A stretch of 63,851 nt of DNA from a virus. Its lineage: Duplodnaviria; Heunggongvirae; Uroviricota; Caudoviricetes. Location: positions 1 to 63,851 of the IMG/VR virus record IMGVR_UViG_3300028805_000039. The stretch is one strand, 5' to 3'. The notes beneath the pieces were generated by a model. It searched no databases. It saw nothing but the letters and a program-made list of their open reading frames with translations, and was not told the DNA's origin. A program made the position numbers and the translations under genes. Below, piece after piece: positions 939 through 52,025 of this stretch (its first letter is position 1; the number at the start of each line of letters is the position of its first letter).

Positions 939-967
939 TTTGAAAATTTTAAAAAAATATTATATAA
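939..967 (+). promoter_or_regulatory. sigma70-like promoter TTGAAA-N17-TATAAT with an A7 tract in the spacer
   Basis: Exact 17-bp spacing. The same architecture recurs at least 12 times in the window. Confidence 0.6.
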
Positions 968-1021
968 TATATATGTAAGATAAAGAAAGGAATGATTTCC
1001 TATGTGCAGGTGTTTTAATTG

Positions 1022-1879
1022 ATGGATTATGCTGCTAAAAAATATATTGATAATTATAGAGATTGGTTTGTAAATGAAGATAAGTGTGGCTGGAAAGATA
1101 ACTTTATTATTGATGAAATAAAACGAGATAAACGACCAGATAAATGGGAAATTTATGCATCAAATTTAACAGGCGAACCTATTTATGATAATAATGGTAA
1201 TTTAATTAAAAAATCTAATAAAAAAAATAAAAAGGAGAATAATAATATGAATATGGATTTTGGTTTTGGAAAGATGTTTAATGGTATGTTTGCTCCCGTT
1301 GCTCATGGTTATGTTAAAATGGGTATGAACGGTGAAGTGGCTATTCGAGTTGGTAATGATTATAAAACCTTTGATATTAAGAGGATGAAACTTGTCAATT
1401 GTGATAATTTTGCTTTTGATATGGATGGTATGTTTTGGGTTGTTCCTACCTTTAAGGTTGAGTGCGGCGACATTATCATGGTAAATGGCAAGCCTCGTTG
1501 TGTAATTGAAGTTAAGGATAAGTCTATTAGAACTTTTTCTTATGAAAATTCTACTATTGATGAAATCATTCCTGAGCATCACGTTTTTATGGGTAAGACT
1601 TATTGTTATGGCAAAATTTTCAGTCCTTTTATGAATATGGATAAATCTGATAATATGATGTCTAATATGATGCAGATGGCTATGATGAGCCAGATGTTTG
1701 GCGGCAATAATTCTAATAATAATGTATTTATGGGAATGAATCCTATGGCAATGATGTTTATGATGAATAATAATAATGGTGGCAATATGTTTAGTGATAT
1801 GTTCGCCGGAGCTTTTAATTTTGGAGAAGATGAAACCAAGACTGATAAACTTGGTACTGCTGTTAAGGAGGATAAGTAA
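1022..1879 (+). CDS. hypothetical protein with a Met/Asn-rich low-complexity C-terminal region
   Basis: ORF 1019-1879 with a probable ATG at 1022 and an internal strong RBS/ATG at 1247. The C-terminus is roughly 25% Met (MMSNMMQMAMMSQMF...MNPMAMMFMM). Confidence 0.6.
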   Translation: MDYAAKKYIDNYRDWFVNEDKCGWKDNFIIDEIKRDKRPDKWEIYASNLTGEPIYDNNGNLIKKSNKKNKKENNNMNMDFGFGKMFNGMFAPVAHGYVKMGMNGEVAIRVGNDYKTFDIKRMKLVNCDNFAFDMDGMFWVVPTFKVECGDIIMVNGKPRCVIEVKDKSIRTFSYENSTIDEIIPEHHVFMGKTYCYGKIFSPFMNMDKSDNMMSNMMQMAMMSQMFGGNNSNNNVFMGMNPMAMMFMMNNNNGGNMFSDMFAGAFNFGEDETKTDKLGTAVKEDK

Positions 1880-1881
1880 AG

Positions 1882-2763
1882 ATGGGTGGAGGCAGTTGGA
1901 CTAGTTCGGCATATGATACTTATACCAAAAGTACGCGAGGAATGAGTGCGGCAGAATATACAACTGCCCACCTTTCTACTCAGGAAGTTTTTAAAGTTAA
2001 TGAACTTTCTCCTGTTCTTAATCCTTATAATGTTGTTAGAGCTTGTCATGATAGTGATGAGCATCCTAATACTCTTCCGGTTATTTTAGCCCTTGATGTA
2101 ACTGGTTCAATGGGCTCTGCGGCTCGTACTGTTAACCAGAAGTTAAATGAAATTATGACTAAAATTTATGAAAATCCCAATATGCCTGATGTAGAATTCT
2201 GTGTAATGGGTATTGGTGATTTAAGTTATGATGATGCTCCTATTCAAATGTCACAATTTGAAAGCGATATTCGTATCGCGGAGCAGAATGACCAGATTTA
2301 CTTTGAAGCAGGTGGCGGTGCAAATCGTTATGAAAGCTATACTGCTGCTTGGTATATGGGCTCTCGCCATTGTGATTTACATTGTTGGAATCGTGGTAAG
2401 AAAGGAATCATTATCACTCTTGGTGATGAATTGCCTAATCCATATCTTCCAAAGGGCATGCTTAATAAAGTAACTGGTGACCACTTACAGGCAGACGTCG
2501 AAACCCCTGAACTTTATAATGAAGTAATTGAGAAATTTAATGTATATCATATTGCTGTTAATGATCATCATAGTTCTTATATATATTATAAAGAAGATGG
2601 CATTGATAAAAAATGGAGCAAATTACTTGGAGATCATTATAGTGTAGAAACTATTAATAGTCTTCCTTTGAGAATTACTCAAATTATTGAGGAAAATATT
2701 GAGGGCAATACAGAAAATACCTCTGGTATTGTTTTTGATGAAAATAATGCTGTAAAATGGTAA
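1882..2763 (+). CDS. von Willebrand factor type A (vWA) domain protein
   Basis: A MIDAS-like DxTGS motif (ILALDVTGSMG) and a downstream ITLGDELPN motif typical of vWA folds. Confidence 0.7.
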   Translation: MGGGSWTSSAYDTYTKSTRGMSAAEYTTAHLSTQEVFKVNELSPVLNPYNVVRACHDSDEHPNTLPVILALDVTGSMGSAARTVNQKLNEIMTKIYENPNMPDVEFCVMGIGDLSYDDAPIQMSQFESDIRIAEQNDQIYFEAGGGANRYESYTAAWYMGSRHCDLHCWNRGKKGIIITLGDELPNPYLPKGMLNKVTGDHLQADVETPELYNEVIEKFNVYHIAVNDHHSSYIYYKEDGIDKKWSKLLGDHYSVETINSLPLRITQIIEENIEGNTENTSGIVFDENNAVKW

Positions 2764-2772
2764 AAATAAAAA

Positions 2773-2808
2773 ATAGCGGATTTCCAAAATTTGGAAATCC
2801 GCTATTTT
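2773..2808. terminator. bidirectional rho-independent terminator (AATAGCGGATTTCCAAA/TTTGGAAATCCGCTATT)
   Basis: Perfect 15-bp inverted repeat between the convergent genes 1882-2763(+) and 2810-3070(-), flanked by T/A runs. Confidence 0.7.
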
Positions 2809-2809
2809 C

Positions 2810-3070
2810 TTAACCATAAACATATGGTCCCCAATCACCTGGCACCCAATATGGGTCAACTGTTGGGGTTGGAGTTTGAATCGGCATAGGGGCTGGCTGA
2901 GCCTAAAACAACAAAGGCGGCTATGTCGGTATTGGAGTTTCAATAATTACAGGAGTAAAAGTTGTCACAGGAGGATCAATAACTGGTTCTCTAATATATA
3001 TATACCAATAAGCAGCAGCTCCTACTAAAATCACAAGGATAAGAATCGCAATAACTATATTTTTAAACAT
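2810..3070 (-). CDS. small signal-anchored proline-rich protein, two in-frame TAG (Gln) codons
   Basis: ATG at 3070 preceded by an AAGGG RBS. The product reads MFKNIVIAILILVILVGAAAYWYIY...PIPTQPPLLFQAQPAPMPIQTPTPT...GDWGPYVYG and ends at TAA 2810-2812. Continuous only if TAG is read as sense. Confidence 0.5.
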
Positions 3071-3143: not shown

Positions 3144-3172
3144 TTGAAAATATTAAAAAAATATTATATAAT
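3144..3172 (+). promoter_or_regulatory. sigma70-like promoter TTGAAA-N17(A7)-TATAAT
   Basis: Same consensus as 939-967. Confidence 0.6.
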
Positions 3173-3207: not shown

Positions 3208-3393
3208 ATGGAATGGAATGAAAAAATTAAAGAAGGAATGAAATTAATTGCCGCAGGATGTTTTGAAGAAGGTGGATTTGCCACTTGTCGAATGAGTAAA
3301 TGTCCTTTTGGAGATTATTGTTGGATTATCAAAAGAGAAAAAGAAGAATATGATAATGACTTAATGGAGCCTTTGTATTGGGATGAAATTTAA
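3208..3393 (+). CDS. small Cys-containing hypothetical protein
   Basis: 61-aa ORF downstream of a promoter and RBS. Confidence 0.5.
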   Translation: MEWNEKIKEGMKLIAAGCFEEGGFATCRMSKCPFGDYCWIIKREKEEYDNDLMEPLYWDEI

Positions 3394-3408: not shown

Positions 3409-4578
3409 ATGAAGAAAGTAAAAATTGTTGTTGGTGCCAATTATGGAGATGAAAGCAAAGGGCTGGTTACTCATCAGTTTTGTAAAGATGCTATACACAC
3501 TTATGATAATACTATTGTAATTTTTCATAATGGTTCTGCCCAGCGTGGGCATACCGTAGATTATAATCCTGATTTCCGCCATGTTTATCATCATTTTGGA
3601 TGCGGAACCGCAGAAGGCATTCCTACTTATTTCGCTGATACCTTTTGGGTTCATCCTATGGAATATTATCGAGAATATGGAGAACTTCTTCGTCAAAATA
3701 TTCATCCACCTATTACTCAATGTAGTCCAAAAGCAAAAGTAGTTACTCCATTTGATATGATTGTAGACCACGCAACAGAGGCTTATATTGGATGGCAGAA
3801 TGGAGAACGCGAGCATGGCTCTTGCGGTTATGGCACTTGGTGTGCTACTGATAGAGAATTTTTTGGACATAAAATCTATACCATAGAAGATTATCTTAAA
3901 GCAGAAAATAACACTAAACTTGGAGTAATGCTTCGTCTTACTTTTTATGATTGTTTAACATTATTGCAGAATATTCGTAATGTTGATTTAGATAAAATTC
4001 CTGAATATGCTGTGTATTTTAAAGATGAAACTCGTATTGATAATACAATTAATCATTTTATTGATGATTTAAAATTCTTTATATCACATAATGAGTTTTT
4101 TTCATTCGATAGTGTTTATTATATTTTTGATAATTTGATTTTTGAAGGAGCACAAGGTCTTGGCCTTGATAAAGATTGCGGAAAAGAATGGCACACTACT
4201 TCTTCTACTGGTTTGACAAATCCTTATAACATGTTAAAAGATAAAGATAATTTTAAAGCAGAAGTATGTTATGTCTCTCGTGCTTATAATACCCGACATG
4301 GAATTGGAGACCTTGAAGAAGAAACAACTAAATCTTCTATTAATAAAGATATGGAAGATAAAACTAATATTCATAATGAATTTCAAGGTAGTCTTCGTTA
4401 TGGATATATTGATGATGCTGAACGCGGAAAAAGAATTTCAAAAGATTATTCTATTGTTGAAAAAGATAATAGATTTTTTAGGACTGATGCTCTTACTCAT
4501 TGTAATGAATTTCCAGAAGTAAATCCTAAATTATATAATTATGCTAGTTTTAATCCATATAGTGTATTGAAAGGATAA
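3409..4578 (+). CDS. adenylosuccinate synthetase family protein (PurA/PurZ-like)
   Basis: N-terminal VVGANYGDESKG (PurA P-loop GDEGKGK-like) and NGSAQRGHTV (PurA GHT His motif). The 389-aa length is shorter than bacterial PurA, as is typical of phage PurZ. Confidence 0.6.
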   Translation: MKKVKIVVGANYGDESKGLVTHQFCKDAIHTYDNTIVIFHNGSAQRGHTVDYNPDFRHVYHHFGCGTAEGIPTYFADTFWVHPMEYYREYGELLRQNIHPPITQCSPKAKVVTPFDMIVDHATEAYIGWQNGEREHGSCGYGTWCATDREFFGHKIYTIEDYLKAENNTKLGVMLRLTFYDCLTLLQNIRNVDLDKIPEYAVYFKDETRIDNTINHFIDDLKFFISHNEFFSFDSVYYIFDNLIFEGAQGLGLDKDCGKEWHTTSSTGLTNPYNMLKDKDNFKAEVCYVSRAYNTRHGIGDLEEETTKSSINKDMEDKTNIHNEFQGSLRYGYIDDAERGKRISKDYSIVEKDNRFFRTDALTHCNEFPEVNPKLYNYASFNPYSVLKG

Positions 4579-5291: not shown

Positions 5292-5320
5292 TTGAAAATT
5301 TATAAAAAATATTGTATAAT
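5292..5320 (+). promoter_or_regulatory. sigma70-like promoter TTGAAA-N17-TGtTATAAT (extended -10)
   Basis: Consensus match with 17-bp spacing. Confidence 0.6.
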
Positions 5321-5713: not shown

Positions 5714-6466
5714 ATGGCAGTTTATGCTTGCGCTGATTTGCATGGTTGTTACTGGGCATGGGAACAGATTAAGAATATTTTACAGCCAAATGATACATTA
5801 TATTTTTTAGGCGACGCAGCAGATAGAGGTCCTGATGGTTGGACTATTATGAAAGAATTATTGAACAATAGTCAAGTAATTTATTTAATTGGTAATCATG
5901 AACGAATGTTTCTTAATAATTGGGGAAGTTATGATGGACATGACCTTGAAAATTATCATCATTTAGATGATCATATTTGGAATTGGTATTGTAATGGTGG
6001 AGAAATTACCGATTCTCAATTTATTCAAGATTCTATCTCTGGCGAAGAAAAGGTTAGTTATATTAGACAATTAAATGACTTACCTTTTATAACAGTTTAT
6101 CATAATGAATTTAATGAAGACGTAGTTCTTTGCCATGCCGGATGTGACTATCATGATATTGATAAATTAACAGAAGAAGCAGCTATTTGGGACAGAACTC
6201 ATTATATATTTAATAAATGGGATGGCCCCAATAATGTTTATATTATTCATGGGCATACTCCTATTCCTCTACTTATCCAAGAGCAAGAAAAGTTTAACAG
6301 ATGGCATAGCCTTGGATATAGTATTCCAAAAGCCGAAGCACTTGAAGGAGCTTATTGGTATGCTGGCGGGCATAAGTGTTGTATTGATTGTGGGGCAGTA
6401 TTTACAGATCAAACAGTATTATTAAATCTTGATACATGGGAAGAAATTATAATTAATAAGGAGTAA
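5714..6466 (+). CDS. calcineurin-like metallophosphoesterase (Ser/Thr phosphatase / ApaH-like)
   Basis: Motifs ADLHG, GDAADRG and GNHE. AGGAG lies 9 nt before ATG 5714. Confidence 0.7.
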   Translation: MAVYACADLHGCYWAWEQIKNILQPNDTLYFLGDAADRGPDGWTIMKELLNNSQVIYLIGNHERMFLNNWGSYDGHDLENYHHLDDHIWNWYCNGGEITDSQFIQDSISGEEKVSYIRQLNDLPFITVYHNEFNEDVVLCHAGCDYHDIDKLTEEAAIWDRTHYIFNKWDGPNNVYIIHGHTPIPLLIQEQEKFNRWHSLGYSIPKAEALEGAYWYAGGHKCCIDCGAVFTDQTVLLNLDTWEEIIINKE

Positions 6467-6471
6467 AAATT

Positions 6472-6657
6472 ATGTGGGATCTTGTTGAAGAAATGTTGAA
6501 AACTATTGCTATTATACTTGGAATTGTACTTCTGTTTTGTTTTCCAGCTATGTGGCTTTGGAATTGGTTAATGCCATATATTTTTAATTTACCAACGTTA
6601 ACATTTGGACAGATGGGTGGCCTTTTGCTTTTAGCTTATTTATTTTTCCATGAATAA
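6472..6657 (+). CDS. small membrane protein
   Basis: 61 aa with two hydrophobic segments. Confidence 0.45.
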   Translation: MWDLVEEMLKTIAIILGIVLLFCFPAMWLWNWLMPYIFNLPTLTFGQMGGLLLLAYLFFHE

Positions 6658-6671
6658 GGAGGAACTATATA

Positions 6672-6941
6672 ATGAAAACTAAAAGAATGGATAGACATAG
6701 TTTTTATTGTATGAATTGTGGAGAAAAAGTTTATGAATTAATGAGACCGGTCAGCCATCAATATGGAAAACATCATCGTAAAGCATTATATTGTCCTTGG
6801 TGCAAGTTAACTGTTAATACGATAGAATGTCGTAATGACAATGAAGTTTATGAGTTTAAAGAAGCCTTCGCCGCCGGAGAATATAAAGAAGAATTAAAAG
6901 AATCTATTGATTTTATTAAAAATAATTATATGGAGTTGTGA
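6672..6941 (+). CDS. zinc-ribbon protein
   Basis: CMNCG...CPWC Cys pairs. Confidence 0.5.
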   Translation: MKTKRMDRHSFYCMNCGEKVYELMRPVSHQYGKHHRKALYCPWCKLTVNTIECRNDNEVYEFKEAFAAGEYKEELKESIDFIKNNYMEL

Positions 6942-6945
6942 TACT

Positions 6946-7431
6946 ATGACTACTTTATACATTATGGTTGGAGCTCCTGGTAGTGGAAAAAGTTATTTTG
7001 CTAAGAAATATCTCTTTGCTGGTAAACCTCATATTGTATATATTTCTCGTGATGAAGTTAGATATTCAATGATTAATGAAAAAGACTCTTATTTTAGTAA
7101 AGAAGATGATGTTTTTGCTGAATTTGTAAGGCGTATTAAATATCATATTGCTATTGGAGCTGATGCGGTCATTGCTGATGCTACTCACTTAAATTGGAAT
7201 AGTCGTCGTAAATTGCTTAATGCTTTAAATATCCTTAATGAAACAAATAATAATTTGGCTATTATTCCAGTTGTATTAAAACCAAATATTAATATTGTTT
7301 TAGAAAGGAATAATACTAGAGAAGGACGAGCCAATGTCCCAGAAGATGTAGTAAAAAGAATGTGGAATAATCAGACTTCTCCTAAAACCGATCCTTTTAA
7401 CTATACTGCAATAATGGAGGTAATTACATGA
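6946..7431 (+). CDS. P-loop kinase (AAA/zeta-toxin-like nucleotide or polynucleotide kinase)
   Basis: Walker A motif GAPGSGKS. ATG 6946 lies inside the longer track ORF 6907-7431. Confidence 0.55.
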   Translation: MTTLYIMVGAPGSGKSYFAKKYLFAGKPHIVYISRDEVRYSMINEKDSYFSKEDDVFAEFVRRIKYHIAIGADAVIADATHLNWNSRRKLLNALNILNETNNNLAIIPVVLKPNINIVLERNNTREGRANVPEDVVKRMWNNQTSPKTDPFNYTAIMEVIT

Positions 7432-7646
7432 TAATTACTACATTACTTTATATTTTTGCTACTATTGGAGTATTAAATACAATTACTGCTATTATTTTTT
7501 TAATCTATTTAATAGTAGATATAAATAACTATAAAGAATGGGAATATATAGAAGGGTATGGATTTAAAAATATTTGGAAAAATGAACGAAATGGAAATGA
7601 AGAGGAAATATCTGGAAGTAATCAAAATAATAGTAGCAAATGCTAA
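7428..7646 (+). CDS. small membrane protein
   Basis: 72 aa with a hydrophobic N-terminus. ATGA start overlaps the upstream stop. Confidence 0.45.
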   Translation: MIITTLLYIFATIGVLNTITAIIFLIYLIVDINNYKEWEYIEGYGFKNIWKNERNGNEEEISGSNQNNSSKC

Positions 7647-7805
7647 ACCAGAATCTTATACATTAAACTAGTTGCGGTGTGTTAATCAAATTTTAATGTA
7701 TGGTGCTAATACAACTCACCTTAAAGGATCTAATAATAGTTTTGGAATGGATGAAGGTTGGAAGGTAGATTATTTTCCAACTTCTTTTGTAAAGGATGAT
7801 AATGA

Positions 7806-8378
7806 ATGAATAAAATTTGGCTTTCTAGCGACTATCATTTCCAGCATGATAGAGAATTTATTTATAAACCAAGAGGATTCAATAGTGTAGATGAAATGAA
7901 TAATACTATTATTACAAATCATAATAATATTGTTGATAATGATGATGATGTATATTTACTTGGTGATTTAATGTTAGGTGGTCCTGATAAAATGGATACA
8001 GGACTTGAAATGATTAGAGCATTAAATGGGCGGCTCCATTTAGTGCGAGGAAATCATGATACTAATAAAAGATGGGAAGTATATGCTACACTTCCTAATG
8101 TAATAGAACAGAAAAATGCTATTTATTTAGATTATCATAAATATCATTTTTATATGAGCCATTATCCTACAATTACTAGCAATCTTGAAAAAGAAAGTCT
8201 TCATCAATGTACTATTAATCTATATGGACATACTCATCAACATAATTCTAATTTTTATATGGATATTCCATATATCTATCATGTTGGGCTTGATTCTCAT
8301 CATAATTGTTTAATTAATTTAGATGATGCTATTTTAGATATGAAACAAAAGGTGCAGGAGTGTTTTGATGAACTTTGA
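7806..8378 (+). CDS. metallophosphoesterase (YfcE/MPP family)
   Basis: Motifs SDYHF, GDLMLGG, GNHD and GHTH. Confidence 0.7.
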   Translation: MNKIWLSSDYHFQHDREFIYKPRGFNSVDEMNNTIITNHNNIVDNDDDVYLLGDLMLGGPDKMDTGLEMIRALNGRLHLVRGNHDTNKRWEVYATLPNVIEQKNAIYLDYHKYHFYMSHYPTITSNLEKESLHQCTINLYGHTHQHNSNFYMDIPYIYHVGLDSHHNCLINLDDAILDMKQKVQECFDEL

Positions 8379-35455: not shown

Positions 35456-38400
35456 TTGATAGATACATTTTTTGATGTTCATGCACATACAGAATATTCA
35501 AATATAAGATTAATTGACTGTATCAATCATCCAAAAGACTTAATCAATAGAGCGATTGAAGTAGGGCTTAGTGGATGCAGTATAACTGACCACGAAGCTC
35601 TATGTTCGCATATGATTGTTAATAAGTATGCTAAAGAGATAAAAGAAAAGTATCCTGACTTTACAATCGCATTGGGCAATGAAATTTATCTTACAGATAC
35701 GAGAAATAAAGGACAAAAATATTATCACTTTATCTTATTAGCAAAGGATAGATTAGGATATAAAGGTCTTTGTGAATTAAGCTCAACTGCTTGGTATAAT
35801 ATTTATGTAGATAGACGGCTTGAAAGAGTACCAACCTTAAAAAGTGAACTGAAAGAAATTATGCAAAAATATAAGGGTCATATAATAGCCACTACTGCTT
35901 GCATGGGTGGAGAATTATCTACAAATTTATATGGATTTGCAATAGCAAAACAAGAAAATGATACTGAATATATGAATTTATATTATAATAATGCTATTCA
36001 GTTTATTCAATTTTGTATAGATACTTTTGGAAAAAATGATTTTTATATTGAATGCGCCCCTAGTCCTAAACCAGACCAAGTAATAGTTAATAGAGAATTA
36101 TTAAAAATTGCTAAAGAAAATGATTTAAAAATGGTTATTGGTACAGATGCTCATTATCTTAAAAAAGAAGACAGATATGTTCATAAATCATATTTAAATT
36201 CAAAGCAAGAAGAGCGTGAGGTTGATGATTTTTATGAATATACTTATATGCAATCTCCAGAAGAAGTAAGAGAGCATTTAAGAATTTCAATGAGTGATCG
36301 AGATATTGATTGGATATTTGAAAATTCATTAGAAGTTAAAGAGAAAATAGATTTTTATAGTTTAGAAAAACATCAACATATTCCAGAGGTAAGAGTCAAA
36401 GGTTATAGTAAAGATTGCTGGAAATATATCCATATTGATTTAAATAAATATCCAATTTTAAAACAATTATTTATAAGTGATAATATTCAAGAACGATATT
36501 GGGTTAATGAATGTATTAATGCTTTAATTTTAAAAGGATTAATAGATGACGAAAGGTATTTGAATAGACTTGAAGAAGAGGCACGAGTAAAAAGAGTTAT
36601 TGGTGAAAAACTTCAAACATGCATGTTTGCTTATCCAAATACTTTATAGCATTATATTGATTTATTTTGGGAGTGTGGTAGCACTGTTGGTGCAGGCCGT
36701 GGTTCAGCGTGCTCGGGTTTAAATCATTATCTTTTAGGAGTTACATAGCTTGATCCTATTGAATGGAATTTACCATTTTGGCGTTATCTTAATGATGAAC
36801 GAGTAGAGCTTGGTGATATTGATATTGATCTTGCCCCAAGTAAATTACCTAAAATATTTGAAGCTATTAGAAAAGAACGTGGAGAATTAGGTATAGTACA
36901 AGTTTGTACTTTTGGTACAGAAGCAACTAAATCTGCAGTTTTAACCGCATGTCGTGGTTATAGGAGTGAAGAATATCCAGATGGAATAGATGTTGATGAT
37001 GCTCAATATATTTCATCATTAGTCCCACAAGAGCGAGGATTTTTATGGGATCTTCATGATATGATTGAAGGAAATCCTGATAAAGGTAGATTGCCGCAAA
37101 AACAGTTTATTAATACAGTAAATCAATATCCTGGTCTTTTAGACATTATGAAAGGTATTGAAGGACTAGTGTCTCGTCGAGGAATTCATGCTTCTGGTGT
37201 TATTTTATTTGATGAAGATATATTTAGTGAAGCAGCTATTATGCGAGCAAGAAATGGAAATTTAACGACTCAATGGGATTTACATGATCAAGAATCCGCT
37301 GGTAGTGTTAAGTATGACTTTCTTTTAACCGCAGTTCAAGATATTATTATTGAAACAATAGATTTACTTCAAGCAGATGAAGTAATAGATCCATCTTTGT
37401 CTTTAAGACAAGTATATAATAAATATTTACATCCAAACGTAATCCCTCAACATGATCCAAAAATGTGGGATGCTTTAGCAAAAGGTAGCGTGCTAGGAGT
37501 ATTCCAGTTTGAAGGTTCTGTTGGAGCACAAGCAGCTAAAAAAATTAAACCACAAAATCCATTGGAAATGGCTGATGCAAATGGATTAATGCGACTTATG
37601 GCAAGCGAACCAGGGGCAGAAATGCCACTTGATAAATATGTCCGTTATAAAAATGATATTAATCAGTGGTATATGGAAATGAATAGATGTGGATTAACAA
37701 AAGAAGAGCAAAAAGCAATTGAACCACATTTTAAATCTTCATATGGTGTCCCACCAAGTCAAGAGTAGTTAATGCGAATGTTAATGGATGAAAATATTTG
37801 CGGTTTTACATTAGCAGAAGCAAATGCGGCTCGTAAAATTGTCGGTAAAAAACAAATGTCTAAAATTCCTGGATTAAAAGAGAAAGTATTAACATCTGCA
37901 AAATCTCCAAAATTAGGTGCTTATATTTGGAAGTATGGGGCCGGCCCATAGATGGGTTATTCATTCTCGATTATTCATGCTTTGGCTTATTCATTTATTG
38001 GTATGCAAACCTTATATCTTGGAGTTTATTATCCAGTATATTGGAATACCGCATATCTGATCGTTAATAGTGGAGCATTAGGCGGCGATGAAGATGATGA
38101 TGGCGATAAACAAGATGGGACAGATTATAAAAAAATCGCAAAAGCAATTGGACAAATTAGAGCGGCTGGTATTCAAGTAAGTTTAGCAGATATTAATCGT
38201 TCTGAATTTGGATTTGTCCCAGATCCAGAAAATAATCAAATTCTTTTTGGAATGAAAGGTATGTTAAATGTTGGTGATGATATTATTGAAGAAATTATTT
38301 CACATCGACCTTATGTATCTCCAAGAGATTTTATTAATAAAGTAAAACCAAATAAACAAGTTATGATTTCTTTAATCAAAGGTGGCGCTTTTGATAATTT

Positions 38401-39352
38401 AATGGATCGAAAAGAATGTATGGCTTGGTATTTATGGGAAATATGTGATAAAAAGAAAAAAGTAAATCTTCAAAATATGGCTGGATTAATGAAATATAAA
38501 TTAATTCCAGAAGATACAGATGAAAAAATTATGGCTCGTAGAATTTATGAATTTAATAGATATTTAAAAGCAATTACAATTCCTGCCAATAAATTAAAGC
38601 CATATTTTGTTTTAAACGAACGAGCAATAAATTTTTTATTTGATATAGATAAAGAAGATTTAATTTGTCAAAATGGAAATTGGTATTGTATATTAAAAGC
38701 AGATTGGGAAAAAATTTATCAAAAGTATATGGACGTATTTCGTCAATGGATTTCAGAGCACCATGATGAAATATTAGATAGTTTTAATAAATTAATCTTT
38801 TTAGATGAATGGAATAAATATGCAAAAGGAACAATTTCAGCATGGGAAATGGAAGCATTATGTTTTTATTATCATGAACATGAATTAGCGCATATAGACA
38901 ATTATCGTTATGGCTTTGCAAATTTTTATGATTTACCTTCAGAGCCTGAAATTGATAGAAGTTTTACAAAAGCAGGAAAAACAATAAATTTATATAAATT
39001 GTATAAAATTTGTGGCACATGCATTGCTAAAAATAAAACAAAAAGCACTGTAACAATTTTAACAACAGATGGAGTTGTTGATGTAAAATTTAGAAAAGAA
39101 TATTTTGCTTTATTTGATAAATAGATTTCAGCAAAAGGTGATGACGGTAAAAAGCATATCGTAGAGCGCAGTTGGTTTAATCGCGGTTCAATGATTATTG
39201 TTCAAGGGATAAGAATGGAAGATATGTTTGTTGCAAAAAAATATGCTTCTTCTGGCGGTCATTAGCTATATAAAATTGATGAAGTAAATTATGATACAAT
39301 AAAAATTAGAACAACAAGAGCACAAGGAGATGAAGAAGAGGATAATGGATAA
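35456..39352 (+). CDS. dnaE: DNA polymerase III alpha subunit (DnaE-type, PHP domain), 1298 aa, 7 TAG codons
   Basis: N-terminal PHP motif FFDVHAHTEYS...ITDHEAL. One frame is continuous across track ORFs 35456-36649, 37061-37768 and 37952-39124, and on to TAA 39350-39352, when TAG is read as Gln. Confidence 0.75.
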
Positions 39353-39926
39353 TACATATACAATTATTGCGCTTATGGGAAAAGCTGGTTCTGGAAAAGA
39401 TACTATAATGCGGGCACTTTTAAAATAGCCCGCATTTAAAGATGCTGTCCCTATTATTAGTTGTACAACTCGTCCAATAAGAGATAATGAGAAAGACGGA
39501 ATAGATTATCATTTTTTAACAAAAGAATAGTTTACAAATAAAATTCTTTCTGGAGAAATGTTAGAAGCAACTGTCTTTAATGATTGGTGTTATGGGACTT
39601 CATTAGATAATCTTGCGCCAAATAAAGTAAATATTGGTGTATTTAATCCAGAAGGAGTAGGATTATTACGTGATAGATCTAATATTAATTTAAAATTAAT
39701 TTATATTGAAGCAAGAGATAAAGATAGATTAATGCGTTAGTTAAATCGAGAAAAAGATCCTGATATACATGAAATTATCCGTAGATATTCTGCTGATGAA
39801 ATGGATTTTTCGGAGGAAGAAATTCAATATCTTGAACCAGATTGTTTTATTACAAATAATGATGGTGGCAGTGTAAATTAGATTGCGGCAGCTATCGCTA
39901 GAGCATGGAGTAATGGTCAATTATAA
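39345..39926 (+). CDS. gmk: guanylate kinase-like nucleoside monophosphate kinase (five TAG codons)
   Basis: P-loop GKAGSGKDT and the GMP-kinase signature SCTTRPIRDNEKDGIDYHF. GAGG RBS; overlaps the dnaE stop. Confidence 0.7.
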
Positions 39927-43469: not shown

Positions 43470-43985
43470 ATGAATATATATTTAGCTGGACCAATTTTTT
43501 TCTATGGTGATTATTTAAGAAATATTGAATGGGCTAATAAAATTAGATAGGCATTTCCTGATGTCTATCTGTATAGTCCAGTAGAAAATACTGATATAAA
43601 TGGTGTAGAGGGCAAAAAAAAGTTTGCCGGCTCACAAGAAATTGCTAATGGAGATAATAGTCGTCTTGATATGACTGATGTATTGATTGCTTGTATTGAT
43701 GGTGATGTACTTCCTTCTGGCACTTGCGCTGAAATTGGTAAATTTCATGAAAAGGTTATGCGTGGCGATAATAAATATATTATTGGTATTTGCACTGATA
43801 CTCGTTAGTGCTATAATACTCATAGTGCTGAAAAAGATATGGGTGGAGCTGCTAGCTTGGGTGAGTAGCAATATAGCTATCAAAATCTTTATGTGACAGG
43901 TTTAATTAAACAAGCTGGAACATTAGTGTATAATATTGATGAAGTTATTGAAATTTTAAAAGAAATTCATAATAGATTTAATTAA
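43470..43985 (+). CDS. nucleoside 2-deoxyribosyltransferase family protein (four TAG codons)
   Basis: Hallmark N-terminus MNIYLAGPIFF and a downstream acidic catalytic region. Confidence 0.6.
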
Positions 43986-48224: not shown

Positions 48225-49364
48225 ATGTTCACTGAAATTGATTATAAACCAGAATATGCCTTATTAAGTAATGGAATTATTAATGTAACAGATGATTGTA
48301 ATTTATAGTGTAAATATTGTTTTGTAGAATAGCATCCTCATTATATGACATTAGATACAGCTAAAGCTATAGCTGATTTTCTGTATAAAAATGCTGAAAA
48401 GAAAAAAGAATTAGGAATAATGCCAAAAAATAAAAAATGTGATTATTATTTTTTTGGTGGAGAACCTATGTTATAGTATGAGCAAATTATAAAACCTATG
48501 ATTGAATATTGTGAAACTATTTATCCAAATCAATTTAAATATGGAATTACTACTAATGGCACTTTATTAACAAAAGAAGTTATAGATTTTTTTAAAAAGT
48601 ATAAATTTGGAGTTATGATTTCTATGGATGGGATTAAAGAGTCTCAGGATTTTACTCGTCCTTGTAGAGATAAAAAATTAAGTAGTTATGATTTATTAAT
48701 TAAAAATATCCCATATTTATTAGAGCAATTACCAAATACAGTTACTAGAGGAACAGTATATCGTGAAAGTGCTCAATATTTATTAGAAAATTATAAATTT
48801 GCTGAATCGTTAGGATTTAAAAATTGGGCATTCTTAGCAGATCATAGGCACCCTTGGACACAAGAGCAAATGAATATTTTAGAAGAACAAATTAATGAAA
48901 TTTATCGTTATAGATTAAATTAGTTGATTGAAGGTAAATTACCAATGCATTCTTGGCGACATTCTTTTTGGATGCGAAGTACTATCAATTTATTAGATCC
49001 TGAAAGCACAGCTTTTAATATTGAAGAAAATAATTCAATTTTACGATGTGGTTTAGGCACAACGCTAGGAGCTATAGGATATGATGGAGCTATTTATGGA
49101 TGCCAAGAGCAATGTTCAAAAGAAAATAAAAATATTTTTTATATTGGAAATATTTTTAATGGTGGAATTGATATAGAAAAACATAAAGCATTATTAAATT
49201 TATATTTGCAAGCATAGGATGGACCTAAAGATCATTATGAAAAATGTGTTACTTGTCCATTACGAAAAGCATGTGCAGTTAATACTTTAGTTTGTCCATC
49301 TAGCACTTTTGATTTATATAATAATTTTGAAACAATAGATGATTTTAATTGTTTTTTAAGATAG
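48225..49364 (+). CDS. radical SAM / SPASM-domain maturase (anSME / ranthipeptide-maturase-like), six TAG codons
   Basis: GGAG RBS. CNLQCKYCF (CxxxCxxC with TAG=Q) and C-terminal SPASM Cys clusters (CGLGTTLGAIGYDGAIYGC...CVTCPLRKAC). In-frame TAG at 49362-49364; if read through the frame ends at TAA 49470-49472. Confidence 0.7.
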
Positions 49365-49479
49365 ATATATTTTAAAAATTCTTTATTATATTTAAATATC
49401 TTTATGCAATGTAAACATTTTAAAATTATTGAAGATTTCTTAAAATCAGAAATAGAAGGAATAAGGGGGTAATGTTATA

Positions 49480-50223
49480 ATGAGTGATTCCGCATGCGTA
49501 ACTGCTCAAAATTTTTGCCAAACTTGTTAGACAGGAGCTGAGACTGTAGGATATACTTTAACAAAAGGATTGCCTGATACTTAGGATTATATTACTAGTG
49601 AATTAGGACCAGCTATTAGAGCAGCATTATAGAAATTACATGATTATGGAAAAAAAGGAAGCAGAGAGTGGCCTTCACAAAATGAAATTAATTCTATTCC
49701 AAATATAAATAAAAGTGCTGGACAAAAAATTACTGCTGAAGAATATAATAAAATATTAAAAATTATTTCTGTTACTCCAATTACTGTTAGTGAAACAACT
49801 TAGACTGTTCATGTGCCTGGAGAATTAGAATAGTATAGTTGTTATAATTTATGTCCAGATATTTTCTCAGCTTTACCAGATTGGACAGCAAATGTAGTAT
49901 TAACAGAGGAAATGCTTTGGGGTAAGGATTATACTTACACTACTAAAAAACAAAAAAAATCAGAACCTCAATATCAAGTAGATACAGGAGATGTAGTAAG
50001 TATTAATGTTATTAAACAATTCTTACGAGATTATCAAATAGATTATAATAGATGTAATGACTGTAATACTTCTAATAATTGTGCTCAATGTCATTGCGAT
50101 TGTCATCGTTCTTCATGTGATACTAGTAGTAGTAGTGGTTGTAGTGAATGTTGTATGTACGGAGGAAGTAATGCTGGAGCTGGATGCCATACTCATAGCA
50201 GTTGTAGCGATTATAGTTGGTAA
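49480..50223 (+). CDS. 248-aa protein with Cys/Ser/Thr/Gly-rich C-terminal core (candidate RiPP precursor-like substrate), five TAG codons
   Basis: The C-terminal 55 residues are CNDCNTSNNCAQCHCDCHRSSCDTSSSSGCSECCMYGGSNAGAGCHTHSSCSDYSW (13 Cys). Sits immediately downstream of the rSAM gene. Confidence 0.55.
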
Positions 50224-50230
50224 TTATATA

Positions 50231-50268
50231 AAAAATGGTAGATTATTTTTTAATCTACCATTTTTTTT
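50231..50268 (+). terminator. rho-independent terminator (TGGTAGATT...AATCTACCA + T8)
   Basis: Perfect hairpin after TAA 50221-50223. Confidence 0.7.
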
Positions 50269-50744
50269 ATATAATTTTTATAAGTATTATTTTTATTTAA
50301 ATTAATTAAAAATATTTTTTTAAAAATTATTATTTTATTTAAACTTTTTATTTTTATATTTATATTAAAAATATTCTAAAATATCTTTTTAATTTCATTA
50401 TTATCATATTTGTCCTAAGATAACAAAATTAATAATAATATATCTTTTTTAATATTTTTATGCTGCTTTTTATAATAACAATTAATAAAATGATAACTAT
50501 TATTATTTAAAAAAGTATTAAAATAATAATTAGGTTTTATACCATTTAATCCTTTAAAAAACAAAACTAAACAATCACTTTCTTTATTATAAAAGCTAAA
50601 TAAATCTGGTATATAATATAAATAATCAAAAATTAAATTATAAAATTCTATATTCTAATTAATTTGATCTTTATAATTAAAAAATAAATTTTTTAAATAA
50701 TTAAAATTATTATTAACTAAATATTGCTAAGTACTATAAATAAA

Positions 50745-52025
50745 ATCATATAAAAATATTAAACATTTTGTTTTTAAAGATTTATTATTATTTTTTATAA
50801 ACTAATAATGCATATGAGGAAAAATATTATAATTATCTAAAAATACATGAACGGCAAATAAATTATTACATTGTGAACTATTATAATAATAAAAATTTAA
50901 TTTTAAATTATTATTTAATTCAATATAATAATTTAATAAATCTTTATCAGTAATTATCTATTTATTTAAAAATATTTTTTGATTATAATTATCATATTTA
51001 ATAGTATTAAAAAACTACTATTCATTATAACATTCTCTTAAATTTAAATTACTAAAATGCTAATATTGATAATATAGCGGATCTGATAAATTCTTAAAAG
51101 GTATAGCAAGGTTTGTTTTTTTTGTTTGACTTAATATTCCCTAATAGATTTCAGTAAAACATCGTTCTAAAGCTATCTCAAATATAGGAAAAGAACCTAA
51201 AATTAATGAATAATTATAATTTTTCTAATCTATTAATAATAAACCAATAACAGGAATAGAATATAAATATGAATAGTCAAAAATTTTAAAATTATATCCT
51301 AATGTATATAATTTATTTCCTTTATCTTTTAATGTTTCTGGTAATTTTAATTTATCAAAATTTAATTCTGGAGTAGGTTGATTAATATTCTCATAAACTT
51401 TATTCCAAACCATATGCTCATAAACTTCTGAAATACCCTATACTAATGCTTCTTCTAAAGTATTCCCCGCAGCCATTCCATCACTACCAGTAACAGCCTA
51501 TACTATTTCTGGCATTAAATATTGTTTTTCATTATTATTACCTATTTTAATAAAAGGTACTCCAATAAATTTATTGAAAGCTAATTGATATACTTTTTCT
51601 AAATTATTATTATCATCATTCATTAAATCAAATTTATATTTAATCCTCGAAGATAGCTATGTTGCTTCATAAAATGTTAATTCTTTTTCATCGGGACAAA
51701 AATAATAACCATATTTTTTATACCGTTCTTTTTTTATATCTTGATAACTCATAGTAGCATACATTTCATTTCCAGCATTACAAAAACGTTCATATAATTC
51801 TGCATATGCCGAAGCTTTAGAAAATTGTTCTGTTATACCTTTTCCATTTGATGATAATAATAAAAAATCTTTATAATATAATTGCAAAGATATCCACCAA
51901 GTACCAATTTCAGTCTATGTATTATTTTTTTCTTCAATTCTTAAACCTTTATTATAAAAAAACTATTGAATTAATTTAATTGTATCTATAGGTTTTCTAT
52001 TTTTATATTTATCATTATAATTCAA
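50745..52025 (-). CDS. YcaO-domain protein (cyclodehydratase / thioamidation family), TTG start, about 20 TAG codons
   Basis: Minus-strand frame continuous from TTG 52025 (AGGTGG RBS 6 nt upstream) to TGA 50745-50747 when TAG=Gln. Contains both YcaO hallmark motifs, SNGKGITEQFSKASAYAELYERF and SDGMAAGNTLEEALVQGISEVYEHM. The C-terminal third is extremely AT-rich and low-complexity. Confidence 0.6.

What the first reader, a model, noticed from the sequence alone, without database searches (positions are those of the whole stretch)
3409..4578. PurA/PurZ-like adenylosuccinate synthetase in the early region: possible 2-aminoadenine (Z) genome or purine pathway takeover
A 389-aa PurA-family protein (VVGANYGDESKG P-loop, GHT His motif) in a phage is the defining marker of PurZ-type Z-base biosynthesis. 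PurZ makes the precursor of dZMP from dGMP and Asp. The window also encodes a guanylate-kinase-like NMP kinase (39345-39926), two nucleoside 2-deoxyribosyltransferases, a nucleobase permease, NrdD/NrdG, two metallophosphoesterases and a P-loop kinase next to purA. No HD-domain DatZ or MazG-like MazZ homolog is visible in this window, so this remains a hypothesis.
Basis: partly seen in the sequence, partly recalled or inferred. Interest (0 to 1): 0.6.

Follow-up and report, generated by a model that had tools for sequence, protein, structure and literature searches.

The report
Phage PurA-like enzyme paired with vWA protein
The gene is real and belongs to the adenylosuccinate-synthetase superfamily, but it is not the PurZ enzyme that makes 2-aminoadenine DNA; it belongs to a large, uncharacterised phage lineage that almost always sits next to a von Willebrand-A (vWA) protein gene and probably has a different, still unknown substrate.

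Summary
The ORF at 3409-4578 (+, 389 aa) is real and has the adenylosuccinate-synthetase fold. It fails every testable PurZ criterion. It keeps the catalytic Asp that all phage PurZ/PurZ0 replace by Ser. It scores 20.6 bits on NCBI's PurZ model (cut-off 300; true PurZ/PurZ0 score 350-397; E. coli PurA 127). The window has no DatZ, MazZ, DutZ/DmtZ or DpoZ homolog, and its polymerase is Pol III alpha. It is not a canonical PurA either: 40-53 bits against cut-offs near 400, only 3 of 8 IMP contacts kept, the aspartate loop shortened, and the guanine-specifying Asp333 replaced by Asn. It belongs to a third lineage (at least 1861 clusters at 50% identity) with its own invariant active-site residues. 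This lineage is coupled to a vWA/MIDAS-fold gene, g4 (1882-2763). The two genes are adjacent in 77 of 78 testable metagenomic loci and in Vibrio, Rhizobium and Mycobacterium phages. They occur in 221 and 222 of 50,697 phage records, with the same genus counts. I found no paper describing this pairing. The most likely function is a PurA-type, probably ATP-driven ligase with non-canonical substrates that works with the vWA partner. The substrate is unknown. The window itself is a TAG-recoded gut phage.

The parts
3409..4578 (+). PurA-superfamily enzyme (g7, 389 aa), a member of the vWA-linked third lineage. The catalytic residues D14, K17, H48 and Q249 (E. coli D13, K16, H41, Q224) are kept. Clade-specific residues are N41, Q45, R46, C139, H297, Q326, R330, H364, N366 and E367.
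1882..2763 (+). Conserved partner g4 (293 aa): vWA/MIDAS-fold protein, PHROG 2971 'unknown function'. It has an invariant D72-V-T-G-S-M77 motif and G181-D182-E183. It lies immediately upstream of the PurA-like gene in nearly all relatives.
1022..1879 (+). g3 (285 aa), with no family match and a Met/Asn/Gly/Phe-rich C-terminal tail. A homolog lies directly upstream of g4 in about 64 of 80 MAG loci and in all 6 gut-phage contexts. Only sub-threshold similarity was found to the genes in the matching position in Rhizobium and Vibrio phages.
3208..3393 (+). g6, a small Cys-rich ORF (61 aa) between g4 and the PurA-like gene. It is conserved only in the closest relative (L013, 74% identity). Whether it belongs to the module is uncertain.
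940..968 (+). Promoter-like site TTGAAA-17-TATAAT (11 of 12) upstream of g3. Sites with the same hexamers lie at 3144-3172 and 5292-5320.
   Evidence: consensus match only; the total number of sites is not above shuffled sequence
2768..2810 (.). A 20-bp perfect palindromic hairpin with a T-run, directly after the g4 stop codon. It may be a terminator separating the g3-g4 unit from the g6-PurA-like unit.
3144..3172 (+). Promoter-like site TTGAAA-17-TATAAT (11 of 12) upstream of g6 and the PurA-like gene.

Best explanation
The ORF encodes a member of an uncharacterised, phage-borne third lineage of the adenylosuccinate-synthetase superfamily. It is neither PurA nor PurZ/PurZ0. It forms a conserved gene module with a vWA/MIDAS-fold protein (g4) and, in gut phages, with g3. 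Shown: the fold; retention of the residues that in PurA deprotonate N1 and phosphorylate O6 of a 6-oxopurine nucleotide (Asp13, Lys16, His41, Gln224); a clade-wide, invariant remodelling of the 5'-phosphate, ribose and amino-acid pockets; and near-obligate adjacency to the vWA gene. Inferred: the enzyme still carries out PurA-type chemistry, that is, NTP-dependent phosphorylation of a ring carbonyl followed by displacement by an amine. The donor is probably ATP rather than GTP, because Asn366 replaces the guanine-specifying Asp333, as in the ATP-using PurZ of phiVC8. The base probably lacks a 2-amino group, because the Asp is kept. The nucleotide and/or amine substrate is not bound the way PurA binds IMP and L-aspartate. 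The vWA partner probably recruits, presents or regulates a substrate or target through its metal-ion site. The module sits in the TAG-free, early-type block of a TAG-recoded phage, among RNA-repair-type genes, which fits a host-takeover or counter-defence role better than bulk dATP supply. It does not indicate a 2-aminoadenine genome.
Against: No biochemical data exist for any member, so the substrate inferences rest on alignments to distant homologs (16-19% identity) and on an AlphaFold model whose coordinates I could not inspect. A conservative N38Q change and backbone contacts at position 273 could still permit IMP binding. One Arg (R330) and a Ser/Thr at position 328 could still bind aspartate. 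The published S14D mutation of PurZ abolishes selectivity rather than activity (preprint), so Asp alone does not prove that dGMP is excluded. About 11 of 87 and 39 of 137 clade members keep Asp at the donor position, so ATP use is not clade-wide. Gene adjacency does not prove physical or functional interaction, and a possible terminator lies between g4 and the PurA-like gene here. One locus (L017) has g4 without the enzyme.
Confidence: 0.55

Rival explanations
1. It is a divergent but genuine adenylosuccinate synthetase (IMP or dIMP + L-Asp + NTP gives adenylosuccinate). It would be carried as an auxiliary metabolic gene to raise adenine-nucleotide supply for an AT-rich (about 71% A+T) genome, with host PurB finishing the reaction.
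For: The catalytic Asp13, Lys16, His41 and Gln224 are invariant. The best HMM and profile matches are to PurA, not PurZ, and E. coli PurA finds the ORF at 1.7e-6. The window encodes much nucleotide metabolism: NrdD/G, a guanylate-kinase-like kinase, an NDT and a nucleobase permease. No phage PurB is needed if the host supplies it.
Against: The protein falls about 350 bits short of every PurA equivalog cut-off. Five of 8 IMP contacts are changed, the aspartate/2'-OH loop is shortened, and these changes are invariant across the clade, so they are not drift. The near-obligate pairing with a vWA protein is unexplained. The gene lies in the early block, 35 kb from the nucleotide-metabolism cluster at 39-45 kb. 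The same module occurs in phages of Mycobacterium, whose genomes I recall as G+C-rich (not measured here), so A+T demand is not a general driver.
Confidence: 0.25
2. It works like PurZ (dGMP + Asp gives the dZMP precursor), and the phage has a 2-aminoadenine genome, with the accessory enzymes elsewhere in the genome or replaced by non-homologous ones.
For: PHROG 1211 and RefSeq label relatives '2-aminooxy adenylosuccinate synthetase'. The Asn at the donor position and the loss of the Arg303 2'-OH contact resemble PurZ. Only about 64 kb of a probably 150-190 kb genome is visible. An NDT-family gene is present, and DmtZ of PurZ0 phages is NDT-family.
Against: Asp, not Ser, sits at the defining position in every clade member. 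The curated PurZ HMM gives 20.6 bits against 300. There is no detectable similarity to PurZ beyond the P-loop, and the protein falls outside the PurZ/PurZ0 group in a distance tree. No DatZ, MazZ, DutZ, DmtZ or DpoZ homolog is in the window, and Wayne DutZ-DmtZ finds nothing. DatZ homologs are absent from the Mycobacterium and Rhizobium phages that carry the module. The polymerase is Pol III alpha. The published tree leaves the roughly 330 non-PurZ phage homologs outside the PurZ group.
Confidence: 0.03
3. The protein no longer acts as a metabolic ligase. Instead it is a nucleotide-dependent switch or chaperone partner of the vWA protein, by analogy with P-loop NTPase plus vWA pairs such as MoxR/NorQ-NorD or the BchI-BchD chelatase.
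For: The vWA partner's structural neighbours include NorD and the Mg-chelatase D subunit, which work with P-loop ATPases. The AdSS fold is a P-loop NTPase derivative (weak Get3 and Soj hits). The substrate pockets are remodelled.
Against: Asp13, His41 and Gln224 serve base activation rather than NTP hydrolysis in PurA, yet they are invariant across 144-149 cluster representatives. Several clade-specific residues line the former IMP pocket and are just as invariant, which suggests a defined small-molecule site.
Confidence: 0.08

Closest known systems
Adenylosuccinate synthetase PurA (EC 6.3.4.4; Pfam PF00709; TIGR00184)
   Same: Same fold (TM 0.60-0.68 to bacterial, plant and mammalian PurA). 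Same P-loop GDExKG, with the catalytic Asp13, Lys16, His41 and Gln224 kept. The family profile aligns to E. coli PurA over 293 columns at 96.9% probability.
   Different: Scores 40-53 bits against equivalog cut-offs of 395-402. IMP 5'-phosphate and ribose contacts are changed (N38Q, T129C, V273H, R303 lost, R143 not conserved). The aspartate loop is four residues shorter. K331H and D333N are seen in the guanine pocket. The C-terminal domain is about 65 residues shorter. The gene is coupled to a vWA gene.
PurZ / PurZ0 (N6-succino-2-amino-2'-deoxyadenylate synthase of Z-genome phages; NCBIfam NF038379; PDB 6FM1, 7ODX, 7VF6)
   Same: Phage-encoded members of the same superfamily, with a compact C-terminal region. 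Asn at the donor-base position, as in phiVC8 PurZ N297. Loss of the PurA Arg303 contact to the 2'-OH.
   Different: Asp instead of the universal Ser at the catalytic position. 20.6 bits against a 300-bit cut-off. Similarity is restricted to the P-loop. 12-14% identity and TM 0.45-0.64. No Z-cluster partners. A different polymerase type. Different phage groups carry it.
'PurA-like adenylosuccinate synthetase' of cluster C (Bixzunavirus) mycobacteriophages, Rhizobium Kleczkowskaviridae phages and roughly 190-kb Vibrio phages (PHROG 1211)
   Same: Same lineage: shared signature residues (Q45, C139 in most, H297, Q326) and the same upstream vWA gene.
   Different: 27-32% identity to the window protein. 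The Rhizobium and Mycobacterium versions keep Asp at the donor position and are longer (416-442 aa). None has been characterised, and RefSeq copies carry a PurZ-type name that this analysis does not support.
vWA/MIDAS domain proteins that partner P-loop NTPases (NorD, BchD/ChlD, BatB) - for the partner g4
   Different: No sequence-level family match (Pfam, NCBIfam and PDB all empty; PHROG 2971 is 'unknown'). It has an extra conserved N-terminal segment of about 60 residues. Its partner is an AdSS-fold enzyme rather than an AAA+ ATPase.

Membership tests
PurZ / PurZ0 | Catalytic Asp13 (E. coli PurA numbering) replaced by Ser; 100% of 147 phage PurZ/PurZ0 in PMC12884076 | tested here: not met
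   The query has D14. Asp is found in 84/84 and 144/144 clade members, and Ser in all 5 PurZ/PurZ0 references.
PurZ / PurZ0 | Score at or above the curated cut-off (300 bits) of NCBIfam NF038379 amino_Aden_PurZ | tested here: not met
   Query 20.6 bits. Controls: phiVC8 397.2, S-2L 349.8, Wayne PurZ0 366.7, E. coli PurA 126.7.
PurZ / PurZ0 | Groups with PurZ/PurZ0 to the exclusion of PurA | tested here: not met
   hhalign to phiVC8 PurZ covers only 26 columns at 33.5% probability, against 293 columns at 96.9% to E. coli PurA. In the NJ tree the query falls in a separate group (crude, one PurA outgroup, no bootstraps). tblastn hit sets: the query finds Mycobacterium and Rhizobium phages, which are absent from PurZ's listed genus counts; the Vibrio overlap was not checked.
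PurZ / PurZ0 | Co-encoded dATP-exclusion and dGMP-supply enzymes (DatZ, MazZ/DUF550, or DutZ/DmtZ/DUF5664) | tested here: not met
   No hit in the window better than E about 0.6 (chance level) for DatZ (2 versions), MazZ, Wayne DutZ-DmtZ or Frizzle Dut-like proteins. DatZ is absent from the Mycobacterium and Rhizobium carriers. Caveat: the window is only part of the genome.
PurZ / PurZ0 | Z-selective polymerase (PolA-type DpoZ) or the PrimPol of S-2L | tested here: not met
   The polymerase in the window is family C, Pol III alpha (PF07733 3e-41, plus PHP, finger and HHH domains). There is no DpoZ similarity.
PurZ / PurZ0 | 2-aminoadenine replaces adenine in virion DNA | not testable with these tools
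   Needs nucleoside LC-MS or PacBio kinetics on virion DNA.
Canonical PurA (adenylosuccinate synthetase, EC 6.3.4.4) | Score at or above the equivalog cut-offs (TIGR00184 395.55; NF002223 402) | tested here: not met
   Query 40.3 and 52.9 bits; E. coli PurA 697 and 688.
Canonical PurA (adenylosuccinate synthetase, EC 6.3.4.4) | Catalytic residues Asp13, Lys16, His41 and Gln224 | tested here: met
   D14, K17, H48 and Q249 are invariant in the clade.
Canonical PurA (adenylosuccinate synthetase, EC 6.3.4.4) | IMP-contacting residues Asn38, Gly127, Thr129, Arg143*, Thr239, Val273 and Arg303 (H. pylori equivalents in PMC11571797) | tested here: not met
   Only Gly127 and Thr239 (plus Asp13) are kept. 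Seen instead: N38Q, T129C, V273H, R303 lost, R143 variable.
Canonical PurA (adenylosuccinate synthetase, EC 6.3.4.4) | Guanine-specific (T/S)KxD motif (Lys331, Asp333) | tested here: not met
   The query reads T363-H364-C365-N366. In the clade His is found in 84/87, and the last position is Asn in 76 and Asp in 11. In the 150 representatives it is Asn in 95 and Asp in 39.
Canonical PurA (adenylosuccinate synthetase, EC 6.3.4.4) | Aspartate/2'-OH loop A-T-T-G-R-R-R-R (residues 299-306) | tested here: not met
   The loop is four residues shorter (F-Q-G-S-L-R-Y-G) with a single conserved Arg.
Canonical PurA (adenylosuccinate synthetase, EC 6.3.4.4) | IMP + L-Asp + GTP gives adenylosuccinate in vitro, or complementation of a purA mutant | not testable with these tools
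   Needs an enzyme assay or genetic complementation.
vWA-linked PurA-like lineage (grouping proposed here; PHROG 1211 next to PHROG 2971) | A vWA-fold gene immediately upstream on the same strand | tested here: met
   g4 at 1882-2763 is 645 bp upstream of the ORF. The same arrangement is seen in 9 of 9 and in 77 of 78 testable loci, and the coordinates are adjacent in Mycobacterium, Rhizobium and Vibrio phage records.
vWA-linked PurA-like lineage (grouping proposed here; PHROG 1211 next to PHROG 2971) | Signature residues Asn(Q34), Gln(N38), Cys(T129), His(V273), Gln(G298) and His(K331), together with a retained Asp13 | tested here: met
   The query has N41, Q45, C139, H297, Q326, H364 and D14. 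Clade frequencies are 134-149 of about 147.
vWA / MIDAS domain (for partner g4) | Rossmann-like vWA fold | tested here: met
vWA / MIDAS domain (for partner g4) | Functional metal-ion-dependent adhesion site (DxSxS...T...D) | tested here: inconclusive
   D72-V-T-G-S76 and G181-D182-E183 are invariant and lie in the expected order. Their geometry and metal binding could not be inspected.

The most novel reading that the evidence does not exclude
The vWA-linked PurA-like enzymes catalyse a new reaction: ATP- or GTP-driven activation of a purine (or other ring) carbonyl, followed by attack of an amine other than free L-aspartate. That amine might be a metabolite, a peptide, or a protein side chain presented by the vWA partner (g3 is a candidate in gut phages). 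The product would be a previously unknown nucleotide or base modification, or an inactivated host nucleotide signal, used early in infection by large phages of at least four bacterial phyla.
Probability: 0.3. Interest if true: 0.8.

Novelty: new variant of a known kind. Interest (0 to 1): 0.55.

Why it matters
First, this corrects an annotation that is spreading. RefSeq copies of cluster C mycobacteriophage and Rhizobium phage records, and PHROG 1211, call this lineage '2-aminooxy adenylosuccinate synthetase', which invites false predictions of Z-genomes. A PF00709 hit in a phage does not by itself predict 2-aminoadenine DNA, and a single residue (Asp versus Ser at position 13) plus the curated PurZ HMM separates the cases. 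Second, it defines a large family (at least 1861 clusters at 50% identity) found in phages of Actinomycetota, Pseudomonadota and, by MAG binning, Bacillota (some bins are labelled Bacteroidota). The family keeps PurA's catalytic core but has its own invariant substrate pocket and a near-obligate vWA partner. That makes it a well-defined candidate for new nucleotide chemistry or counter-defence. Cultured carriers exist (Bxz1-type mycobacteriophages, Vibrio phage Va1/phiKT1024, Rhizobium phage RHph_Y65), so it can be tested directly.

Tried and rejected
- Megablast of window 1-25000 against 50,697 phage records found no match, so there is no close annotated relative.
- The tRNA scan and the Rfam gathering-threshold scan of the whole window found nothing, so no suppressor tRNA or structured RNA was seen.
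- A sequence search of the PDB with the g4 family profile found nothing, even at E <= 10. Pfam and NCBIfam were also empty for g4, and Pfam and PHROGs were empty for g3.
- The g3 profile gave only sub-threshold hits (E 0.45 and 1.2) to the genes in the matching position in Rhizobium and Vibrio phages. This is suggestive but not accepted.
- Literature searches for the vWA plus PurA-like pairing, for Bxz1 PurA function, for the PurZ0 donor-specificity paper and for the E. coli Val273/Thr300/Arg303 mutagenesis paper returned nothing usable. My recollections that Val273, Thr300 and Arg303 are L-aspartate determinants, and that D333N switches E. coli PurA towards XTP, are therefore unverified and are not used as evidence.
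- I considered and rejected read-through of the ORF into g8: the stop is TAA and g8 is in another frame.
- I considered a dedicated lyase: no PurB-like gene lies in the window or in 1.17 Mb of related loci, or in carrier phage genomes.
- I considered g56/g57 as DmtZ: no similarity to the Wayne DutZ-DmtZ protein.
- The promoter scan as a whole is not above shuffled expectation.
Full report
OBSERVATION. The quoted motifs are present: VVGANYGDESKG at residues 7-18 and G-H-T at 47-49. The window turned out to use TAG as a sense codon. Reading TAG as sense raises the coverage by long ORFs from 38.9 to 57.2 kb, and the longest ORF from 793 to 1538 aa. The PurA-like ORF has no in-frame TAG and ends in TAA, so its boundaries are not affected. 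It lies in an almost TAG-free block (g1-g17, 1-8.7 kb), whereas the replication and structural genes carry up to 27 in-frame TAGs. Superfamily membership is clear. Pfam PF00709 scores 75 bits (E 5.9e-21), although only profile positions 1-293 of 416 are matched. An AlphaFold model built on 54 family members (pLDDT 88, pTM 0.89) matches only adenylosuccinate-synthetase-fold structures with confidence.

IS IT PurZ? Published work gives explicit criteria. In a tree of 767 sequences, PurZ and PurZ0 form one group with 100% bootstrap support. All 147 phage members have Ser in place of the catalytic Asp13 of E. coli PurA. Only 147 of 481 phage PF00709 proteins belong to that group (PMC12884076). [quoted passage not shown] I fetched authentic PurZ (phiVC8, S-2L, Acinetobacter DMU1), PurZ0 (Arthrobacter Wayne, Gordonia Frizzle) and E. 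coli PurA and aligned them with the query and its relatives. PurZ reads G-S-T-G-K-G and PurZ0 reads G-S-E-A-K-G. The query reads G-D-E-S-K-G. Asp is kept in 84/84 relatives from fetched loci and in 144/144 representatives of 50%-identity clusters.

NCBI's curated PurZ model NF038379 (cut-off 300 bits) scores phiVC8 at 397, S-2L at 350, Wayne PurZ0 at 367 and E. coli PurA at 127. The query scores 20.6. The family profile aligns to phiVC8 PurZ only over the 26-residue P-loop, at 33.5% probability. With tblastn, PurZ does not find the ORF even at E <= 10. The partners that define a Z-cluster are absent from the window: two DatZ, MazZ, Wayne DutZ-DmtZ, the Frizzle Dut-like proteins and two DpoZ give no hit better than E about 0.6, which is chance level. 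The polymerase is Pol III alpha, family C. DatZ homologs occur in 94 phage records, and Mycobacterium and Rhizobium phages do not appear in the organism counts, although those groups make up 212 of the carriers of this gene. The Z-genome reading is therefore rejected as far as sequence can test it. Only chemistry on virion DNA could reopen it.

IS IT PurA? It is not a canonical PurA either. It scores 40.3 and 52.9 bits against equivalog cut-offs of 395.55 and 402, where E. coli PurA scores 697 and 688. It is nearer to PurA than to PurZ: hhalign gives 96.9% probability over 293 columns, and Foldseek gives TM 0.60-0.68 and 16-19% identity to PurA against 0.45-0.64 and 12-14% to PurZ/PurZ0. The catalytic Asp13, Lys16, His41 and Gln224 are invariant. 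The substrate pockets are remodelled. A crystal structure of H. pylori AdSS lists the IMP hydrogen bonds: Asp12; Asn37, Thr121, Thr230 and Arg135* (5'-phosphate); Gly119, the Val264 backbone and Arg294 (ribose) (PMC11571797). These correspond to E. coli D13, N38, T129, T239, R143*, G127, V273 and R303. In this lineage only D13, G127 and T239 remain. N38 becomes Gln (143/144), T129 becomes Cys (134/147), V273 becomes His (149/149), R143 is not conserved, and R303 is lost because the A-T-T-G-R-R-R-R loop is four residues shorter and keeps one Arg.

In the nucleotide-donor pocket, E. coli T-K-L-D (Lys331, Asp333) reads T-H-C-N in the query. The improved alignment places query N366 opposite phiVC8 N297 and S-2L Q308. 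Those residues are described as incompatible with guanine's 2-amino group in the ATP/dATP-using PurZ enzymes (PMC8342488). Across the lineage this position is Asn in 76 and Asp in 11 of 87 sequences, and Asn in 95 and Asp in 39 of the representatives. Both donor types probably exist, and the query is of the presumed ATP type. The fact that the changed residues are themselves invariant argues for a conserved, different specificity rather than decay.

THE CONSERVED PARTNER. The nearest phage relatives are not Z-phages. They are a human gut phage (MT835469, 36% identity), Vibrio phages of about 190 kb (32%), Rhizobium phages of about 207 kb (31%) and 202 cluster C mycobacteriophages (27%). In five metagenomic contexts of closer relatives and in those four phage loci, the gene just upstream is homologous to window g4 (1882-2763, 293 aa). 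BLASTP gives 56-87% identity in gut phages, 36% (2e-50) in Vibrio phiKT1024, 31% (1e-35) in LinStu gp258 and 31.5% (1e-34) in RHph_Y65 gp018. A scan of 185,579 species genomes with the g4 family returned 80 loci. Almost all come from gut or rumen MAG bins of Lachnospiraceae, Ruminococcus, Oscillospiraceae and Clostridia. In 77 of them the PurA-like gene follows g4 on the same strand after 53-617 bp. Two of the three exceptions are contig ends, and one (L017) is genuine.

HOW IT PROBABLY WORKS. Shown: the fold, the retained catalytic tetrad, the invariant but non-canonical pocket, and the coupling to a vWA gene. Inferred: the enzyme still phosphorylates a ring carbonyl and lets an amine displace the phosphate. 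The donor is ATP in the query (Asn366). The base lacks a 2-amino group (Asp kept). The ribose/5'-phosphate moiety and the amine are not those of PurA, or are bound differently. The vWA protein, a fold that binds carboxylates of partner molecules through its metal site and often works with P-loop NTPases, recruits or presents a substrate or target.

The context gives weak hints. The module sits in the early-type block with a NinI-like phosphatase, a polynucleotide-kinase-like P-loop kinase and a second phosphoesterase. Relatives have Thg1-like, RNA-ligase, NADAR, RNase T and TROVE genes within a few kb. The window's nucleotide-metabolism cluster (NrdD/G, guanylate-kinase-like, NDT, permease) is 35 kb away. 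No phage PurB accompanies the module. The three best sigma-70-like sites in the region (TTGAAA-17-TATAAT) precede g3, g6/PurA-like and g9, and a 20-bp hairpin follows g4. The overall site count is not above shuffled sequence, so this is only suggestive of two adjacent early transcription units.

I put about 0.55 on an active ligase with non-canonical substrates working with the vWA partner. I put 0.25 on a divergent but ordinary adenylosuccinate synthetase, 0.08 on a non-catalytic NTPase or vWA-machine role, and 0.03 on PurZ-like function.

LIMITS. All substrate inferences rest on alignments at 12-19% identity and on a model whose coordinates I could not inspect. The distance tree has one PurA outgroup and no bootstraps. 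The window covers perhaps a third of the genome. Adjacency is not interaction. The matching genus counts do not by themselves prove that the records are the same, although every locus I inspected shows adjacency.

VERDICT. The PurZ/Z-genome interpretation is not supported, and the 'ordinary PurA' fallback is weakened. What is there is a new variant of a known enzyme kind: a widespread, uncharacterised, vWA-coupled lineage of the adenylosuccinate-synthetase superfamily, currently mis-named in PHROGs and RefSeq.

Noticed in passing
whole window; per-gene counts for g1-g68: The phage reads TAG as a sense codon. With TAG as sense, long-ORF coverage rises from 38.9 to 57.2 kb. Genes in 1-8.7 kb are almost TAG-free, replication genes carry 1-16 in-frame TAGs and the minus-strand structural genes up to 27. 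No suppressor tRNA, and no tRNA at all, is in the window.
   Followed up: partly
window 48225-51764: A RiPP-like trio: a radical-SAM protein (48225-49472, PF04055 3.8e-14), a Cys-rich 247-aa ORF (49480-50223) and, on the opposite strand, a YcaO cyclodehydratase-family protein (50250-51764, PF02624 2.3e-22), inside a phage genome.
   Followed up: no
window 5714-8378; also L013, L016, L011, L005, L007: A set of RNA-repair-type genes lies around the module: a NinI-like/Metallophos phosphatase (5714-6466), an AAA_33 polynucleotide-kinase-like kinase (6946-7431) and a phosphoesterase (7806-8378). Relatives add Thg1-like, RNA ligase, NADAR, RNase T and TROVE (Ro60-like) genes.
   Followed up: partly
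L029 (Mediterraneibacter hominis NSJ-55, contig NZ_JACOPF010000001.1, 859956-872711): The g3-g4-PurA-like trio lies inside a 1.96-Mb contig of a cultured Lachnospiraceae isolate (locus G+C 35%). This could be a prophage and is a host clue for this phage group. Most other loci are binned with Lachnospiraceae, Ruminococcus or Oscillospiraceae MAGs.
   Followed up: partly
phage records (e.g. NC_028869, NC_023714, NC_070967 versus KT281790, JN412592, MN988525): RefSeq copies of the same phage genomes rename 'PurA-like adenylosuccinate synthetase' to '2-aminooxy adenylosuccinate synthetase', which is the PHROG 1211 label. This PurZ-type name is not supported for this lineage.
   Followed up: yes
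window 35456-39352: The replicative polymerase is a Pol III alpha (family C) enzyme with PHP, NTPase, finger and HHH domains and 6 in-frame TAG codons. Under the standard code it appears as three separate ORFs.
   Followed up: partly
window 1022-1879 (g3), C-terminal about 80 residues: g3 ends in a Met/Asn/Gly/Phe-rich low-complexity tail (e.g. MMSNMMQMAMMSQMFGGNNSNNN...), which is unusual for a phage early protein. Homolog lengths range from 87 to 640 aa (median 203).
   Followed up: no
L014 9212-9928; phage record NC_054721 (H154): HNH endonuclease genes are found inserted at or next to the vWA/PurA-like junction in some relatives, which suggests the module is a target of homing elements.
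   Followed up: no
L017 6001-10500: This is the only testable locus where a g3-g4 pair is not followed by a PurA-like gene. Small ORFs and a 540-aa ORF follow instead.
   Followed up: partly
Only the neighbouring gene (43470-43985) is a confirmed NDT, and neither resembles DmtZ of PurZ0 phages.
   Followed up: partly
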